Positions 1 through 2,113 of a stretch of 2,113 bases of DNA are shown piece after piece. Position 1 is the first letter of the stretch. Every line of letters begins with the position of its first letter. Origin of the DNA: Escherichia coli (GTDB taxonomy: Bacteria; Pseudomonadota; Gammaproteobacteria; Enterobacterales; Enterobacteriaceae); the NCBI RefSeq assembly GCF_013315695.1, contig NZ_CP054361.1; one strand, given 5' to 3'. A program made the translations under genes and the position numbers. Below the pieces are notes generated by a model, which was not told the DNA's origin, made no database searches, and saw only the letters and a list, made by a program, of their open reading frames with translations.

Positions 1-82
1 GGTTTTGAGGATGAATTAATTTTATATATTCAGAAAACAAACGAGAGGGTAAAAACTCTTTTTGTGAAAATAGATTTAAACG

Positions 83-90
83 GTATCAAG
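83..90 (-). other. Candidate double-strand-origin nick motif CTTGATAC (minus strand), pC194/pUB110/phiX174-type
   Basis: Plus-strand GTATCAAG at 83-90 gives CTTGATAC on the minus strand (context CCAAACTTGATACCG). As I recall, CTTGATA is the conserved nick core of this Rep family. A 6-bp-stem hairpin (TAAGAA-CGCA-TTCTTA, 101-116) is adjacent. The motif is absent from the plus strand, and an 8-mer has a non-trivial chance occurrence in about 4.2 kb of two-strand sequence. Confidence 0.3.
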
Positions 91-140
91 TTTGGATTTT
101 TAAGAACGCATTCTTAGTTCTGGAAAAGAGCCAGCGGCAG

Positions 141-165: not shown

Positions 166-294
166 ATGCAATCTCTAGTGCTCTGTCTATCCTGCATTAT
201 CCTCAGCATTATCCTCAGCATTATCCTCAGCATTATCCTCAGCCTTGCCAACTCGACACCAATGCAGGATAGACAATCCGATGTCAAATGTTAA
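166..294 (+). CDS. Hypothetical 42-aa hydrophobic peptide reading through the tandem repeat (MQSLVLCLSCIILSIILSIILSIILSLANSTPMQDRQSDVKC); speculative
   Basis: ATG at 166 follows an in-frame TAG at 151-153; stop TAA at 292-294. The 12-bp repeat is in frame and encodes IILS x4, giving a roughly 25-residue hydrophobic segment followed by a charged tail. Only a weak SD (GAG at 158-160). All three frames through the repeat are open, so this may be an artefact. Confidence 0.15.
   Translation: MQSLVLCLSCIILSIILSIILSIILSLANSTPMQDRQSDVKC
195..242. repeat. Tandem direct repeat, 4 perfect copies of 12-bp unit CATTATCCTCAG
   Basis: Identical units at 195-206, 207-218, 219-230 and 231-242. A degenerate partial copy (TATCCTG) lies at 188-194 and the array decays into CCTTGCC at 243. 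Confidence 0.95.
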
Positions 295-480
295 CACTCT
301 GCGAGTGGTACATTTTCCCCGGATTATCGTCCTGAGCCTGCCGCTGGCTCTCTTTCTACCGCCTCGCTTTGCTCGTTGCTCAACGCCTCACAGACACGGA
401 TTAAAATCCGCATCCGTTCACCGTTTTTTAAAGTCCGTTAAAAGCATGATGCCATCTCCGAGAGTTAATCTCGTCAAATG

Positions 481-517
481 CTAAATCGTGGGGGTCCCCT
501 TTGGGGTTCCGATTTAG
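481..517. repeat. 8-bp perfect inverted repeat (CTAAATCG / CGATTTAG) enclosing a G/C-tract core TGGGGGTCCCCTTTGGGGTTC
   Basis: 481-488 is the reverse complement of 510-517. The enclosed CCCC(496-499)-TTT-GGGG(503-506) can form a nested mini-hairpin. Confidence 0.85.
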
Positions 518-553
518 TGATTGACGACACCACCGATTAAAAAACTTATGCGG

Positions 554-586
554 GGTGGATGGTTTCACGAAGTGAGGCCATCCACC
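554..586. repeat. 9-bp perfect inverted repeat (GGTGGATGG / CCATCCACC) with 15-nt loop
   Basis: 554-562 is the reverse complement of 578-586. Confidence 0.85.
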
Positions 587-593
587 TGTAAGA

Positions 594-620
594 CAGGGTT
601 TTGTTTTTATTCCCTGTTTT
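594..620 (+). terminator. Weak hairpin plus T-run (CAGGG-N13-CCCTG-TTTT); possible intrinsic terminator or third hairpin of a structured origin
   Basis: 5-bp stem 594-598 / 612-616 with a T-rich 13-nt loop, followed by TTTT at 617-620. The short stem and long loop make this weak. Confidence 0.2.
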
Positions 621-801
621 GGTGATCGGGTGTGTGGAAAAGGTTGGGGTAAGCCGTTCGGGGGTGCTTGTTTTGGGGGGTTAAAATTGTGGTTATTTTT
701 TGCGCAATTCTCGCGCGTGATCCTTGTATTTATACTTAAGGGATAAATGGCGGATATGAAATAGTGGTTTAGCCCAGTAATGACGAGGCTTTGAGTGGGT
801 T

Positions 802-830
802 TTGACAGGTCAAAGAAAATGGAGCAGAAT
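802..830 (+). promoter_or_regulatory. Candidate sigma70-type promoter: TTGACA (802-807) - 17 bp - CAGAAT (825-830)
   Basis: Perfect -35 hexamer embedded in the palindrome TTTGACAGGTCAAA (801-814). The -10 match is only 4/6 but keeps the conserved A2 and T6. It would place the 850-877 hairpin in the rep leader. By-eye prediction only. Confidence 0.2.
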
Positions 831-849
831 TGAGGCGTTTTTAATCGGC

Positions 850-877
850 GTTGGGGAGTGCGTCAACACTCCCCAAC
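850..877. repeat. 11-bp perfect inverted repeat (GTTGGGGAGTG / CACTCCCCAAC) with 6-nt loop CGTCAA; candidate origin or operator hairpin
   Basis: 850-860 is the exact reverse complement of 867-877. The stem is GC-rich and lies about 120 bp upstream of the rep start. No T-run follows it on either strand, so it is not a typical intrinsic terminator. Confidence 0.85.
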
Positions 878-886
878 ATTTCGAAT

Positions 887-917
887 GTGTCACCTCAGCG
901 GCAAACTCTGGTGACAT
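887..917. repeat. 7-bp inverted repeat (TGTCACC 888-894 / GGTGACA 910-916) carrying a CCTCAGC core copy in its left arm and spacer
   Basis: Arms are exact reverse complements, separated by 15 nt. TCACCTCAGC at 890-899 matches the reverse complement of 141-150 and shares CCTCAGC with the tandem array. Confidence 0.6.
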
Positions 918-982
918 GTACTGGCTCGCAATGCACAGGTACGTGATGAATATACCACATCAAATCACAGCCTGCCCAGATC

Positions 983-986
983 GGAG
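983..986 (+). promoter_or_regulatory. Shine-Dalgarno sequence (GGAG) for rep
   Basis: GGAG at 983-986 with an 8-nt spacer (987-994) before the rep ATG at 995. Confidence 0.6.
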
Positions 987-994
987 CAGGCTTA

Positions 995-1960
995 ATGTCA
1001 GAAGATAAATTCCTTTCGGACTACAGCCCCCGTGATGCAGTTTGGGATACCCAGCGCACGCTTACCGATTCTGTCGGGGGTATCTACCAGACTGCTGCTG
1101 AATTCGAGCGCTATGCACTCCGTATGGCCTCCTGTAGCGGTTTGTTACGTTTTGGTTGGTCTACCATCATGGAAACCGGAGAAACGCGCCTACGGCTTCG
1201 TAGTGCGCAATTTTGCCGTGTCCGTCATTGCCCTGTCTGCCAGTGGAGAAGAACCCTCATGTGGCAAGCCCGTTTTTATCAGGCTCTACCGAAAATCGTT
1301 GTGGATTACCCGTCTTCCCGATGGTTGTTTCTGACGTTAACTGTCAGGAACTGCGAGATAGGTGAACTTGGAACAGTCCTTACAGCAATGAATGCGGCGT
1401 TTAAGCGAATGGAAAAGCGAAAGGAGCTATCACCTGTTCAGGGGTGGATCAGGGCTACGGAGGTGACGCGAGGTAAGGATGGCAGCGCACATCCGCATTT
1501 TCACTGTCTGCTGATGGTGCAACCTTCTTGGTTTAAAGGGAAGAACTACGTTAAGCACGAACGTTGGGTAGAACTCTGGCGCGATTGCTTGCGGGTGAAC
1601 TATGAGCCGAATATCGATATTCGGGCAGTAAAAACTAAGACAGGTGAGGTTGTGGCCAACGTTGCCGAGCAACTGCAAAGCGCGGTTGCTGAAACGCTGA
1701 AATACTCCGTTAAACCGGAAGATATGGCAAACGATCCTGAGTGGTTTCTTGAGCTGACGCGGCAGCTTCACAAGCGCCGTTTTATCTCGACCGGTGGGGC
1801 GCTAAAAAACGTCCTCCAGTTGGATCGAGAAACCAATGAGGATCTTGTCATTGCCGACGATGTAGGGGATGGCACTGATGACGGGAAGCGGACGGCGTTT
1901 GTCTGGGATTCAGGTAAACGGCGTTACAAACGCGCCCCTGAGAAGGATAAATCGGATTAA
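995..1960 (+). CDS. rep: Rolling-circle replication initiator protein, Rep_1 (pC194/pUB110) HUH endonuclease family, 321 aa
   Basis: ATG at 995 is the first start after an in-frame TGA at 944-946, with GGAG at 983-986 eight nt upstream. Translation shows CRVRHCPVC (aa 74-82, nt 1214-1240), FLTLT (aa 112-116, nt 1328-1342), HUH motif HPHFH (aa 166-170, nt 1490-1504), WVELWRD (aa 191-197) and ETLKYSVK with Glu233/Tyr237 (Tyr codon 1703-1705). Motif order and spacing match my recollection of pC194 RepA and pUB110 RepU (FLTLT, HPHFH, CPVC and KYSxK motifs). No search was run. Confidence 0.93.
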   Translation: MSEDKFLSDYSPRDAVWDTQRTLTDSVGGIYQTAAEFERYALRMASCSGLLRFGWSTIMETGETRLRLRSAQFCRVRHCPVCQWRRTLMWQARFYQALPKIVVDYPSSRWLFLTLTVRNCEIGELGTVLTAMNAAFKRMEKRKELSPVQGWIRATEVTRGKDGSAHPHFHCLLMVQPSWFKGKNYVKHERWVELWRDCLRVNYEPNIDIRAVKTKTGEVVANVAEQLQSAVAETLKYSVKPEDMANDPEWFLELTRQLHKRRFISTGGALKNVLQLDRETNEDLVIADDVGDGTDDGKRTAFVWDSGKRRYKRAPEKDKSD

Positions 1961-2113
1961 CGTATGAATATTAATATTGAATACCTGAATGGAAATAAGA
2001 CTATTGGTTTATTTTTTTTAAGAAGTGAAGCGGTGATTCCTGACAGGTTTAAAAACCTTATTTTGCTTATTGATGGATTAAGTTTTGGCACATTTGGTTT
2101 TCATCCGCACGAA

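What the first reader, a model, noticed from the sequence alone, without database searches (positions are those of the whole stretch)
850..877. GC-rich 11-bp perfect inverted repeat in the rep upstream region
GTTGGGGAGTG-CGTCAA-CACTCCCCAAC is the strongest hairpin or cruciform candidate in the window and lies between a candidate promoter (802-830) and the rep start. In RCR plasmids such hairpins near rep are typically the Rep-binding or nick-presenting element of the dso, or an operator or attenuator of rep expression. No T-run follows it, so it is unlikely to be a simple terminator.
Basis: partly seen in the sequence, partly recalled or inferred. Interest (0 to 1): 0.5.

Follow-up and report, generated by a model that had tools for sequence, protein, structure and literature searches.

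The report
Stem-loop in pKYM rep control region
The 11-bp palindrome is real and is kept base-paired by evolution. It lies in the transcribed leader of the replication gene of the known rolling-circle plasmid pKYM, about 120 bases from the predicted nick site, so it is most likely an ordinary copy-control RNA stem-loop and not the origin hairpin.

Summary
The window is a complete 2113-bp Col(BS512)-type plasmid. It is essentially Shigella sonnei pKYM, a known rolling-circle plasmid with a Rep_1 (pC194/pUB110-family) initiator.

The inverted repeat 850-860/867-877 is exactly as described: 11/11 bp with a 6-nt loop. A perfect repeat this long arose in 0.9% of shuffles. It is the longest perfect repeat in the window, but two imperfect hairpins are slightly more stable.

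In 14 distinct relatives every cell of the stem is Watson-Crick paired. Three positions show compensatory double changes, and one relative has lost one base pair from both arms. The loop sequence varies.

The nick-site homologue (TCCTTGTATTTATAC, aligned to the pC194/pUB110 CTTG^ATA region) is at 721-735, about 118 nt upstream. The hairpin is therefore not the nick-presenting element.

The hairpin lies about 13 nt downstream of the predicted start of a conserved rep promoter (802-830). It also lies about 95 nt from a conserved convergent extended -10 promoter on the minus strand (978->949). In the sister ColpVC family, a hairpin at the same distance from that promoter carries a U-rich tail on the minus strand, as an antisense-RNA terminator would.

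Best reading: a stem-loop shared by the rep leader and a roughly 100-nt antisense RNA that controls copy number. Main rival: part of the published pKYM origin "enhancer". This is an ordinary element of a known kind.

The parts
850..877 (.). The palindrome itself: 11-bp arms 850-860 and 867-877, loop 861-866 (the loop region contains a HincII site, GTCAAC, at 862-867). It encodes a stem-loop on both strands: stem-loop 1 of the rep leader (+) and the 3'-proximal stem-loop of the predicted antisense RNA (-).
   Evidence: existence, stability, chance; 153 of 153 cells Watson-Crick paired; 3 pairs with changes on both sides (11 cells; 0 of 500 shuffles reach this); four pair types at position 851/876; a paired 1-bp deletion in L134; slid controls only 41-59% paired.
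802..830 (+). Predicted rep promoter (-35 TTGACA 802-807, 17-nt spacer, -10 CAGAAT 825-830). The inferred transcription start is about G837, which puts the hairpin at about +14 to +41 of the leader.
   Evidence: 10 of 12 match. TTGAC, and A2 and T6 of the -10 hexamer, are invariant in 14 relatives, as are G837 and the following T-run. The start site is inferred, not mapped.
888..916 (+). Leader stem-loop 2 (arms TGTCACC 888-894 and GGTGACA 910-916). Its loop varies greatly in sequence and length among relatives.
   Evidence: 97.9% of cells paired and 2 pairs with double changes. The outer pair is U:A or U:G, a wobble that is valid only on the + strand.
949..978 (-). Predicted antisense promoter (-35 TGGGCA 978->973, 18-nt spacer, extended -10 TGgTATATT 957->949). 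The inferred start is about 942, reading leftward across stem-loops 2 and 1.
   Evidence: T, A, T, A and the final T of the hexamer and the TG are invariant, while the 'n' of TGn (955) varies among C, A, T and G; the ColpVC relatives have the same architecture (TGGGCR-18-TGTTATCAT, invariant in 35 sequences, and detected by the scan tool in L073).
842..942 (-). Predicted antisense (counter-transcript) RNA of about 100 nt. It contains the complements of stem-loops 2 and 1. Its 3' end is not defined by a canonical U-tract.
   Evidence: MFE -43.6 kcal/mol, z = -4.6; the hairpin's left end lies 96-103 nt from the antisense -10 in Col(BS512)-type plasmids and 82-89 nt in ColpVC-type plasmids. The transcript itself is inferred; nothing here observed it.
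969..992 (+). Leader stem-loop 3, which sequesters the rep Shine-Dalgarno sequence (GGAG, 983-986) just before the ATG at 995.
   Evidence: compensatory changes at 3 pairs; it is also kept, with a different sequence, in the ColpVC family (CGCCC...GGGCG).
995..1960 (+). rep (RepK), the rolling-circle initiator of the pC194/pUB110 family.
   Evidence: ORF of 321 aa. (Pfam Rep_1 PF01446, E = 1.5e-88). (annotated as 'protein rep'; identical region in pKYM NC_001378.1).
721..746 (+). Invariant double-strand-origin block TCCTTGTATTTATACTTAAGGGATAA. The predicted nick is between T731 and A732.
   Evidence: distant plasmids share only about 704-746. (the 25 bases 722-746 of the block are identical in 87 distinct downstream contexts). 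(alignment to pC194 TTCTTATCTTGATAA and pUB110 TTCTTATCTTGATAC). The CTTG^ATA nick position comes from my own knowledge of the pC194 literature and was not mapped here.

Best explanation
The palindrome is a structural element of the rep (repK) expression-control region of a pKYM-type rolling-circle plasmid. It is not part of the nick site.

Proposed mechanism:
1. Transcription from the rep promoter (802-830) starts near 837, so the palindrome becomes the first stem-loop of a roughly 160-nt leader.
2. That leader also carries stem-loop 2 (888-916) and a stem-loop that hides the ribosome-binding site (969-992).
3. A convergent promoter on the other strand (978->949) makes an antisense RNA of about 100 nt. 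This RNA carries the complementary versions of stem-loops 2 and 1, and the palindrome forms its 3'-proximal stem-loop. In the sister ColpVC family the hairpin at this position is a recognisable intrinsic terminator.
4. Loop-loop pairing between the antisense RNA and the leader would then hold down Rep translation and hence copy number, as in other antisense-controlled plasmids.

Shown here: the palindrome, selection for base pairing, its position relative to conserved promoter-like elements, and its separation from the nick homologue.

Inferred: that both promoters fire, the transcript ends, the kissing interaction, and the effect on Rep synthesis.
For: 1. Identity of the plasmid: the window is a complete Col(BS512)-type plasmid, 100% identical to pKYM over 780-1000, and its Rep is Pfam Rep_1.

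2. Selection for pairing: in 14 distinct relatives, 153 of 153 stem cells are Watson-Crick paired. Position 851/876 occurs as T:A, C:G, A:T and G:C. Positions 852/875 and 854/873 also switch on both sides. L134 has lost one pair from both arms. Loops vary (CGTCAA, CGCTAA, CTGAAA, TTAGCG). Shuffle and slide controls are far lower.

3. The outer stem varies freely in sequence while staying complementary, which fits a folded strand better than a sequence-read protein site.

4. Both strands seem to need the fold. No G:U or G:T pair is seen. One relative (L005) carries the exact inversion of another's loop (L048), a change that merely swaps the two strands' hairpins.

5. Transcription context: both the rep promoter and the antisense promoter show the conservation pattern of real sigma-70 promoters, with invariant key positions and a variable 'n' in TGn.

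6. Sister-family homology of position: ColpVC plasmids have the same antisense promoter. They also have a covarying hairpin 82-89 nt from it whose minus-strand tail is U-rich in all 21 distinct variants, and the scan tool calls it terminator-like in L011. Its distance from the origin block varies from 129 to 242 nt, so the hairpin travels with the antisense unit and not with the origin.

7. The leader as a whole is more structured than shuffles (z = -4.45), as is the antisense RNA (z = -4.6). The stem-loop hiding the ribosome-binding site also covaries.

8. Mosaic relatives (L096, L134) have recombination junctions at about 836-844, so the hairpin segregates with the downstream leader and rep module.
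Against: - No transcript was observed. Both start sites and the antisense 3' end are predictions.
- In Col(BS512)-type plasmids the minus-strand tail after the hairpin is GCCGAUUAAAAAC, with only 1-4 U in the relatives, so it is not a canonical terminator. Where the antisense RNA ends is unexplained.
- No Rfam family, including the known plasmid ctRNA families, matches.
- The inner 7 bp (GGGAGTG/CACTCCC) never vary, which would also fit sequence-specific recognition by a protein.
- Strict Watson-Crick covariation and a tolerated loop flip fit a DNA cruciform equally well.
- The literature summary available to me says the pKYM plus origin is 173 bp with a downstream HU-binding enhancer (PMC4439123). 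If its left edge is near 704, that origin would reach about 877.
- I could not read the primary pKYM papers.
Confidence: 0.55

Rival explanations
1. DNA-level origin accessory element. The palindrome is part of the 'enhancer' of the pKYM plus origin, downstream of the RepK-binding core. It could act as a cruciform or bendable site recognised by HU, or as a secondary RepK site, helping RepK load at the nick 118 bp away. This is not mutually exclusive with the RNA reading.
For: - PMC4439123 summarises Yasukawa et al. 1997: the origin is 173 bp, made of a core plus a downstream enhancer, and HU binds the enhancer and assists RepK.
- Sequence conserved across families starts at about 704, and 704 + 173 is about 877, the end of the hairpin.
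- HU's preference for cruciform and distorted DNA is established knowledge (my own knowledge, not tested here).
- Exclusively Watson-Crick covariation, a constant 6-nt spacer and a tolerated loop inversion are what a cruciform would need.
- The inner 7 bp are invariant.
Against: - The coordinates of the 173-bp origin could not be retrieved. A restriction-fragment guess was uninformative.
- The arm motif occurs nowhere else in the plasmid, so there is no iteron-like relation to the nick region.
- A conserved promoter sits between the nick and the hairpin, so the hairpin is transcribed.
- In the sister ColpVC family the equivalent hairpin keeps its distance to the antisense promoter, while its distance to the origin block varies from 129 to 242 bp. 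That is hard to reconcile with a phased architectural role.
- An 11-bp arm with a 6-nt loop is a marginal cruciform former (my own knowledge).
Confidence: 0.25
2. Constitutive partial transcription attenuator. The strong + strand RNA hairpin followed by AUUU stops a fraction of transcripts about 45 nt after the rep promoter, keeping Rep synthesis low.
For: - The RNA hairpin is strong at -19.6 kcal/mol.
- It is followed by A-U-U-U, and the A and two of the U positions are invariant in 14 relatives.
- It lies immediately downstream of the rep promoter.
Against: - The scan does not call it terminator-like on either strand.
- Only 2-3 U follow the stem, and relatives have AUUCGAAU or AUUUGAGG.
- It lies upstream of most of the antisense-complementary region, so it cannot work like the pT181 or pIP501 antisense-induced attenuators.
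- The ColpVC equivalent has no U on the + strand side.
Confidence: 0.08
3. Nick-presenting hairpin or primary Rep recognition hairpin of the double-strand origin, like IR-II of pT181 or IR-I of pMV158.
For: It is a stable inverted repeat upstream of rep in a rolling-circle plasmid.
Against: - The pC194/pUB110-type nick homologue is at 721-735.
- Bases 722-746 of that block are identical in 87 distinct plasmid contexts, most of which have unrelated sequence at the hairpin position.
- The hairpin loop varies and carries no nick consensus.
Confidence: 0.02
4. Part of the single-strand (lagging-strand) origin, folding on the displaced + strand.
For: The + strand between 850 and 992 carries three conserved hairpins, and the displaced strand is the + strand if the nick is at 731/732.
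Against: - A much better candidate lies at about 470-595. It is conserved in 1408 plasmids, including 607 conjugative ones, and in pO145-12581 it lies about 580 bp from the repA coding sequence, beyond its 3' end. That is the behaviour of a single-strand initiation signal.
- The conservation of promoter elements around the hairpin is explained by transcription, not by priming.
Confidence: 0.03

Closest known systems
Antisense (counter-transcript) RNA control of rep in rolling-circle plasmids: pMV158/pLS1 RNA II, pE194 ctRNA, pUB110 IncA region (from my own knowledge of this literature)
   Same: A small RNA is made from a convergent promoter inside the rep leader. It carries one to three stem-loops whose complements exist in the leader, the last stem-loop sits at the RNA's 3' end, and the output is reduced Rep translation. 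The architecture predicted here matches.
   Different: There is no sequence or Rfam similarity. No Cop-type repressor gene lies upstream of rep. In Col(BS512)-type plasmids the 3' stem-loop lacks a proper U-tail. Nothing has been shown experimentally for this plasmid group as far as I could find.
pKYM plus-origin 'enhancer' bound by HU (Yasukawa et al. 1997, as summarised in PMC4439123)
   Same: It is the same plasmid. The enhancer is described as lying downstream of the RepK-binding core, which is the side on which the hairpin lies.
   Different: I could not obtain the enhancer's coordinates. The hairpin is transcribed and behaves evolutionarily as part of the leader/antisense unit.
Nick-site hairpins of rolling-circle origins (pT181 IR-II, pMV158 IR-I)
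   Same: Both are G+C-rich inverted repeats near rep in a rolling-circle plasmid.
   Different: Those hairpins carry the nick consensus in the loop or stem and are conserved within a Rep family. Here the nick homologue is 118 nt away and the loop is variable.
Kissing stem-loops of ColE1 RNA I/RNA II and R1 CopA/CopT (from my own knowledge)
   Same: Stems are conserved while loops diverge, a pattern that sets control specificity. Both sense and antisense RNAs must fold, which forbids G:U pairs. The pattern seen here matches.
   Different: Those are theta replicons with different outputs (primer maturation, or leader-peptide coupling). There is no homology.

Membership tests
Rolling-circle dso nick-presenting hairpin | The Rep-family nick consensus (pC194/pUB110 type CTTGATA-like) lies within the hairpin | tested here: not met
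   The consensus homologue is at 721-735, with a predicted nick at 731/732. The hairpin loop is CGTCAA and varies among relatives.
Rolling-circle dso nick-presenting hairpin | The element is conserved wherever the same nick region is used | tested here: not met
   Bases 722-746 of the nick block are identical in 87 distinct contexts. Only the Col(BS512)-type ones (about 17) carry this hairpin.
Rep-binding (bind) locus of a dso | Physical binding of Rep, with loss of origin function on deletion | not testable with these tools
   Indirect evidence only. The arm motif is not repeated near the nick. The outer stem changes freely while staying complementary. The inner 7 bp are invariant.
Intrinsic (rho-independent) terminator or attenuator | A G+C-rich stem immediately followed by a U-tract on the transcribed strand | tested here: not met
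   The scan does not list it on either strand. The tails are AUUUCGAAU (+) and GCCGAUUAAAAAC (-). The positional equivalent in ColpVC plasmids does meet this feature on the minus strand.
Antisense-RNA (ctRNA) copy-control region of small plasmids | A promoter convergent with the rep promoter inside the leader | tested here: met
   TGGGCA-18-TGgTATATT at 978->949. Key positions are invariant and the 'n' position varies in 14 relatives. The ColpVC family has the same architecture. This is a consensus-plus-conservation test, not a transcript.
Antisense-RNA (ctRNA) copy-control region of small plasmids | Stem-loops in the overlap region are maintained by compensatory change | tested here: met
   Stem-loop 1 is 100% paired, with 3 covarying pairs. 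Stem-loop 2 is 97.9% paired.
Antisense-RNA (ctRNA) copy-control region of small plasmids | A defined 3' end (terminator) for the antisense RNA | tested here: inconclusive
   Clear in ColpVC relatives. Degenerate in Col(BS512)-type plasmids.
Antisense-RNA (ctRNA) copy-control region of small plasmids | The antisense RNA is detected, it inhibits Rep synthesis, and it exerts incompatibility | not testable with these tools
   Needs RNA mapping and genetics.
Rfam plasmid ctRNA families and other curated RNA families | A match to a covariance model | tested here: not met
   Only two sub-threshold chance-level hits were found, neither at 850-877.
pKYM origin enhancer (HU-binding) | It lies within the experimentally defined 173-bp origin and is footprinted by HU | not testable with these tools
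   Only a secondary summary was available. The primary papers are not held.

The most novel reading that the evidence does not exclude
The palindrome is a dual-use element. As double-stranded DNA it would be the HU-recognised, cruciform-prone part of the pKYM origin enhancer. As RNA it would be the shared stem-loop of the rep leader and its antisense regulator. Transcription through it from either side would then directly modulate origin firing, coupling copy-number sensing to initiation at the DNA level.
Probability: 0.1. Interest if true: 0.5.

Novelty: new member of a known kind. Interest (0 to 1): 0.2.

Why it matters
Col(BS512)/pKYM-type and ColpVC-type plasmids are among the commonest small plasmids of clinical Enterobacteriaceae. 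The 780-1000 region was found in 248 of 5426 complete E. coli genomes and in 222 plasmid records.

Their copy-control circuit does not appear in the literature I could search. A clear prediction is therefore useful for plasmid typing, incompatibility prediction and vector design. The prediction comprises the two convergent promoters, a roughly 100-nt antisense RNA, three covarying stem-loops and a separate nick site.

It is not a new principle. It is the usual antisense logic of small plasmids, found in a Gram-negative branch of the pC194 family.

Tried and rejected
- Rfam search at a permissive E-value: nothing relevant.
- NCBIfam on Rep: no family. Pfam did identify Rep_1.
- Primary pKYM papers and the two classic plasmid-replication reviews are not held. 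Searches for pKYM, RepK and ColpVC gave only secondary mentions.
- Viral-contig scan with the origin block: 0 hits.
- Genome-contig scan with a Col(BS512)-specific rep-start pattern: only two low-coverage contigs, identical to the window over the region examined (upstream of rep), probably contamination.
- I tried to guess the 173-bp origin from restriction sites. Many enzyme pairs give 171-175 bp (for example BstUI at 716 to MaeIII at 889), so this is not evidence.
- I looked for the arm motif elsewhere in the plasmid as a sign of iteron-like Rep sites: none beyond the two arms.
- I looked for G:U intermediates to decide which strand folds. None were found in stem-loop 1. Only stem-loop 2's outer pair and a ColpVC upstream hairpin show wobbles valid on the + strand alone.
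- Rejected as a canonical terminator on either strand.
- Rejected as the single-strand origin, because a far better candidate exists at about 470-595.

Full report
**What the window is.** The 2113 bases are a complete circular plasmid. Identical 2113-bp records exist in E. coli and Klebsiella quasipneumoniae, and 211 plasmid records (mostly E. coli, Salmonella, Klebsiella and Shigella) hold at least 80% of it. The records are typed as replicon Col(BS512) and non-mobilizable. The region 780-1000 is 100% identical to Shigella sonnei pKYM (NC_001378.1, 2083 bp). The only long ORF (995-1960, 321 aa) is a Pfam Rep_1 protein (PF01446, E = 1.5e-88), the initiator family of pC194 and pUB110. pKYM is a known rolling-circle plasmid. 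The one summary I could read says its plus origin is 173 bp long, with a RepK-binding core and a downstream enhancer bound by HU (PMC4439123). The size classes 2089, 2101 and 2113 bp come from the copy number of a 12-bp repeat.

**The observation.** GTTGGGGAGTG-CGTCAA-CACTCCCCAAC sits at exactly 850-877 as a perfect 11-bp inverted repeat with a 6-nt loop. It is the longest perfect inverted repeat with a 3-20 nt loop in the window, and a repeat of at least 11 bp arose in only 9 of 1000 dinucleotide-preserving shuffles. As single-stranded DNA it folds at -11.6 kcal/mol (z = -5.8). Two imperfect hairpins, 471-527 (-13.0) and 554-586 (-12.0), are slightly more stable, so "strongest" holds only for perfect repeats. 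As RNA it folds at -19.6 kcal/mol (+) and -20.9 (-).

**Where the nick site is.** Distant small plasmids share only about 704-746 with the window. An alignment of rep-upstream regions from seven Col(BS512)-type plasmids and four ColpVC-type plasmids (Rep 69% identical) shows an invariant block, TCCTTGTATTTATACTTAAGGGATAA (721-746). A more distant relative in the same alignment (L014, NZ_AP026958.1) carries a diverged version of the block that contains CTTGATAC. A metagenome scan with 25 bases of this block (722-746) returned 120 loci with 87 distinct downstream sequences. Aligned with pC194 and pUB110, which I fetched, window TCCTTGTATTTATAC pairs with TTCTTATCTTGATAA and TTCTTATCTTGATAC, and the following AAGGG is also shared with pC194. 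The nick in that family is CTTG^ATA (my own knowledge of the pC194 literature). This predicts a nick at T731^A732 on the + strand, 118 nt upstream of the hairpin. Most plasmids with the identical nick block have unrelated sequence where the hairpin lies. The hairpin is therefore not the nick-presenting element.

**Is the hairpin under selection?** I collected 14 distinct Col(BS512)-type leaders from plasmid records and metagenomes and aligned them as alignment A1.
- All 153 stem cells are Watson-Crick paired.
- Pair 851/876 occurs as T:A, C:G, A:T and G:C.
- Pairs 852/875 and 854/873 also switch on both sides.
- L134 has lost one G:C pair from both arms.
- Eleven cells carry double changes, against 2.3 +/- 1.4 in shuffles (0 of 500 shuffles reach the observed value). 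Sliding the 3' arm by 1-3 columns drops pairing to 41-59%.
- Loops vary (CGTCAA, CGCTAA, CTGAAA), and L005 has TTAGCG, the exact inversion of the CGCTAA loop of its near-twin L048.
- The inner 7 bp never change.
- Three further natural variants keep the stem intact.

Free change of outer-stem sequence with retained complementarity points to intramolecular pairing, not to a protein reading the sequence.

**Context on both strands.** The -35 TTGAC and the A2 and T6 positions of the -10 hexamer of the 802-830 promoter are invariant, as are G837 and the T-run after it. I infer a start near 837, which places the hairpin at about +14 to +41 of a roughly 160-nt rep leader. RNAalifold on A1 also predicts stem-loop 2 (888-894/910-916, with a hypervariable loop) and a stem-loop that sequesters the Shine-Dalgarno GGAG (969-992). 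Both have compensatory changes. The leader folds at -63 kcal/mol, z = -4.45.

On the minus strand the scan finds TGGGCA-18-TATATT preceded by TG (978->949). Across relatives the hexamer's T, A, T, A and final T and the TG are invariant, while the "n" of TGn is C, A, T or G. That is the signature expected of a working extended -10 promoter. It would start an RNA near 942 that runs leftward through the complements of stem-loops 2 and 1 (about 100 nt, -43.6 kcal/mol, z = -4.6).

**The sister family.** In 35 distinct ColpVC-type sequences the most conserved stretch of the leader is CAGGTGATA..G.AATGATAACAC. On the minus strand this reads TGTTATCATT, again an extended -10, 18 nt from TGGGCR. The scan tool reports it in L073.

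A long covarying hairpin (ACCCC[C/T]GC...G[G/A]GGGGT) lies 82-89 nt from that -10. Its distance from the origin block ranges from 129 to 242 nt because of insertions. In all 21 distinct variants its minus-strand tail is U-rich, for example UUUUCAUUUC, UUAUUUUUUG and CGCUUUUAAU. The scan calls it terminator-like in L011. ColpVC plasmids therefore carry what looks like a complete antisense RNA gene.

In Col(BS512)-type plasmids the hairpin under study sits at the same place, 96-103 nt from the antisense -10. A second ColpVC hairpin, which lies beyond the predicted antisense 3' end, shows G:U wobbles valid only on the + strand (GGTTGC/GTGACC). This fits a leader-only element. The hairpins shared by both transcripts show only Watson-Crick changes.

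**Interpretation.** I conclude that the palindrome is most likely the DNA for a stem-loop shared by the rep leader and a counter-transcript, and so part of an antisense copy-control circuit of the usual small-plasmid kind. The supporting points are:
- strict Watson-Crick covariation, which is expected when both RNAs must fold;
- stems conserved while loops diverge;
- a tolerated loop flip;
- recombination junctions at the transcription start in mosaics L096 and L134;
- a sequestered ribosome-binding site.

The weak points are:
- no transcript was observed;
- the minus-strand tail here (GCCGAUUAAAAAC) is not a proper terminator;
- no Rfam family matches.

**Rivals.** The main rival is a DNA-level role in the published origin enhancer. 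The conserved origin starts at about 704, and 173 bp from there ends at about 877. HU likes distorted DNA. A cruciform would also demand strict Watson-Crick symmetry. I could not obtain the coordinates, and a restriction-site guess was uninformative.

Three observations count against this rival: the arm motif is not repeated near the nick, a conserved promoter separates nick and hairpin, and the ColpVC equivalent follows the antisense promoter and not the origin. The two roles could coexist.

A constitutive + strand attenuator is possible but weak, because only AUUU follows the stem and the scan does not call it a terminator. A single-strand-origin role is unlikely, because 470-595 is a much better candidate.

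**Verdict.** The element is an ordinary member of a known kind, in a plasmid that has been known since the 1980s. Interest is low.

Noticed in passing
window 470-595 (hairpins 471-527 and 554-586, then 585-597 followed by a T-run): This structured non-coding region has homologues in 1408 plasmid records, including 607 conjugative plasmids of 70-160 kb. In pO145-12581 the match lies about 580 bp from the IncI/K-type repA coding sequence, beyond its 3' end. This looks like a single-strand initiation signal, which makes it the likely lagging-strand origin of this plasmid. That reading rests on my own knowledge of primase-dependent ssi signals near oriR of IncF/IncI plasmids.
   Followed up: partly
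window 182-253, flanked by inverted repeats 184-198/261-275 and 124-147/331-354: The 12-bp tandem repeat GCATTATCCTCA is present in 4 perfect copies here, 2 in pKYM, and 1-4 in metagenome copies. This explains the 2089, 2101 and 2113 bp size classes. The repeat sits inside two nested long inverted repeats. Its function is unknown.
   Followed up: partly
window 771-790 (AGCC...GGCT) between the nick block and the rep promoter: A short inverted repeat about 40-60 nt downstream of the predicted nick is kept with different arm sequences in relatives (ACCC/GGGT, AAGCC/GGCTT; in ColpVC CCTTG-TGCCG-CAAGG). It is a better-placed candidate than 850-877 for the RepK recognition element next to the nick.
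   Followed up: no
window 837-842 (GTTTTT at the predicted rep transcription start): G837 followed by a T-run is invariant in all 14 relatives even though the flanks vary. A start-site T-run could allow reiterative, UTP-sensitive initiation. This is pure speculation.
   Followed up: no
L005 versus L048 (loop of the hairpin); L096 and L134 (junction at about window 836-844): One relative carries the exact inversion of the 6-nt loop, a small inversion between the arms that shows the palindrome folds back in DNA at least as a mutational intermediate. Two relatives are mosaics whose recombination junction falls at the predicted rep transcription start.
   Followed up: partly
window 1964-2113 continuing to 1-117 (+ strand, wraps the record start): A second small ORF of 88 aa, annotated as a hypothetical protein (WP_001024536.1), lies directly after rep. 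I did not examine it.
   Followed up: no
L137 and L138 (genome contigs): Fragments matching the window exactly upstream of rep turn up as very low-coverage contigs in a Vreelandella and a Streptococcus assembly, which is probably contamination. One contig ends exactly in the hairpin loop, suggesting that assemblers break at the palindrome.
   Followed up: no
loci with short leaders (for example L064, L091, L111): Other plasmid families with the identical nick block have a different, short leader. A covarying hairpin with a semi-conserved loop (for example ATTGTTGG-TGTCTGAAGT-CAACAAT) sits between the -10 region and the ribosome-binding site. A leader hairpin just downstream of the promoter therefore seems to be a general feature of plasmids that use this origin.
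   Followed up: no
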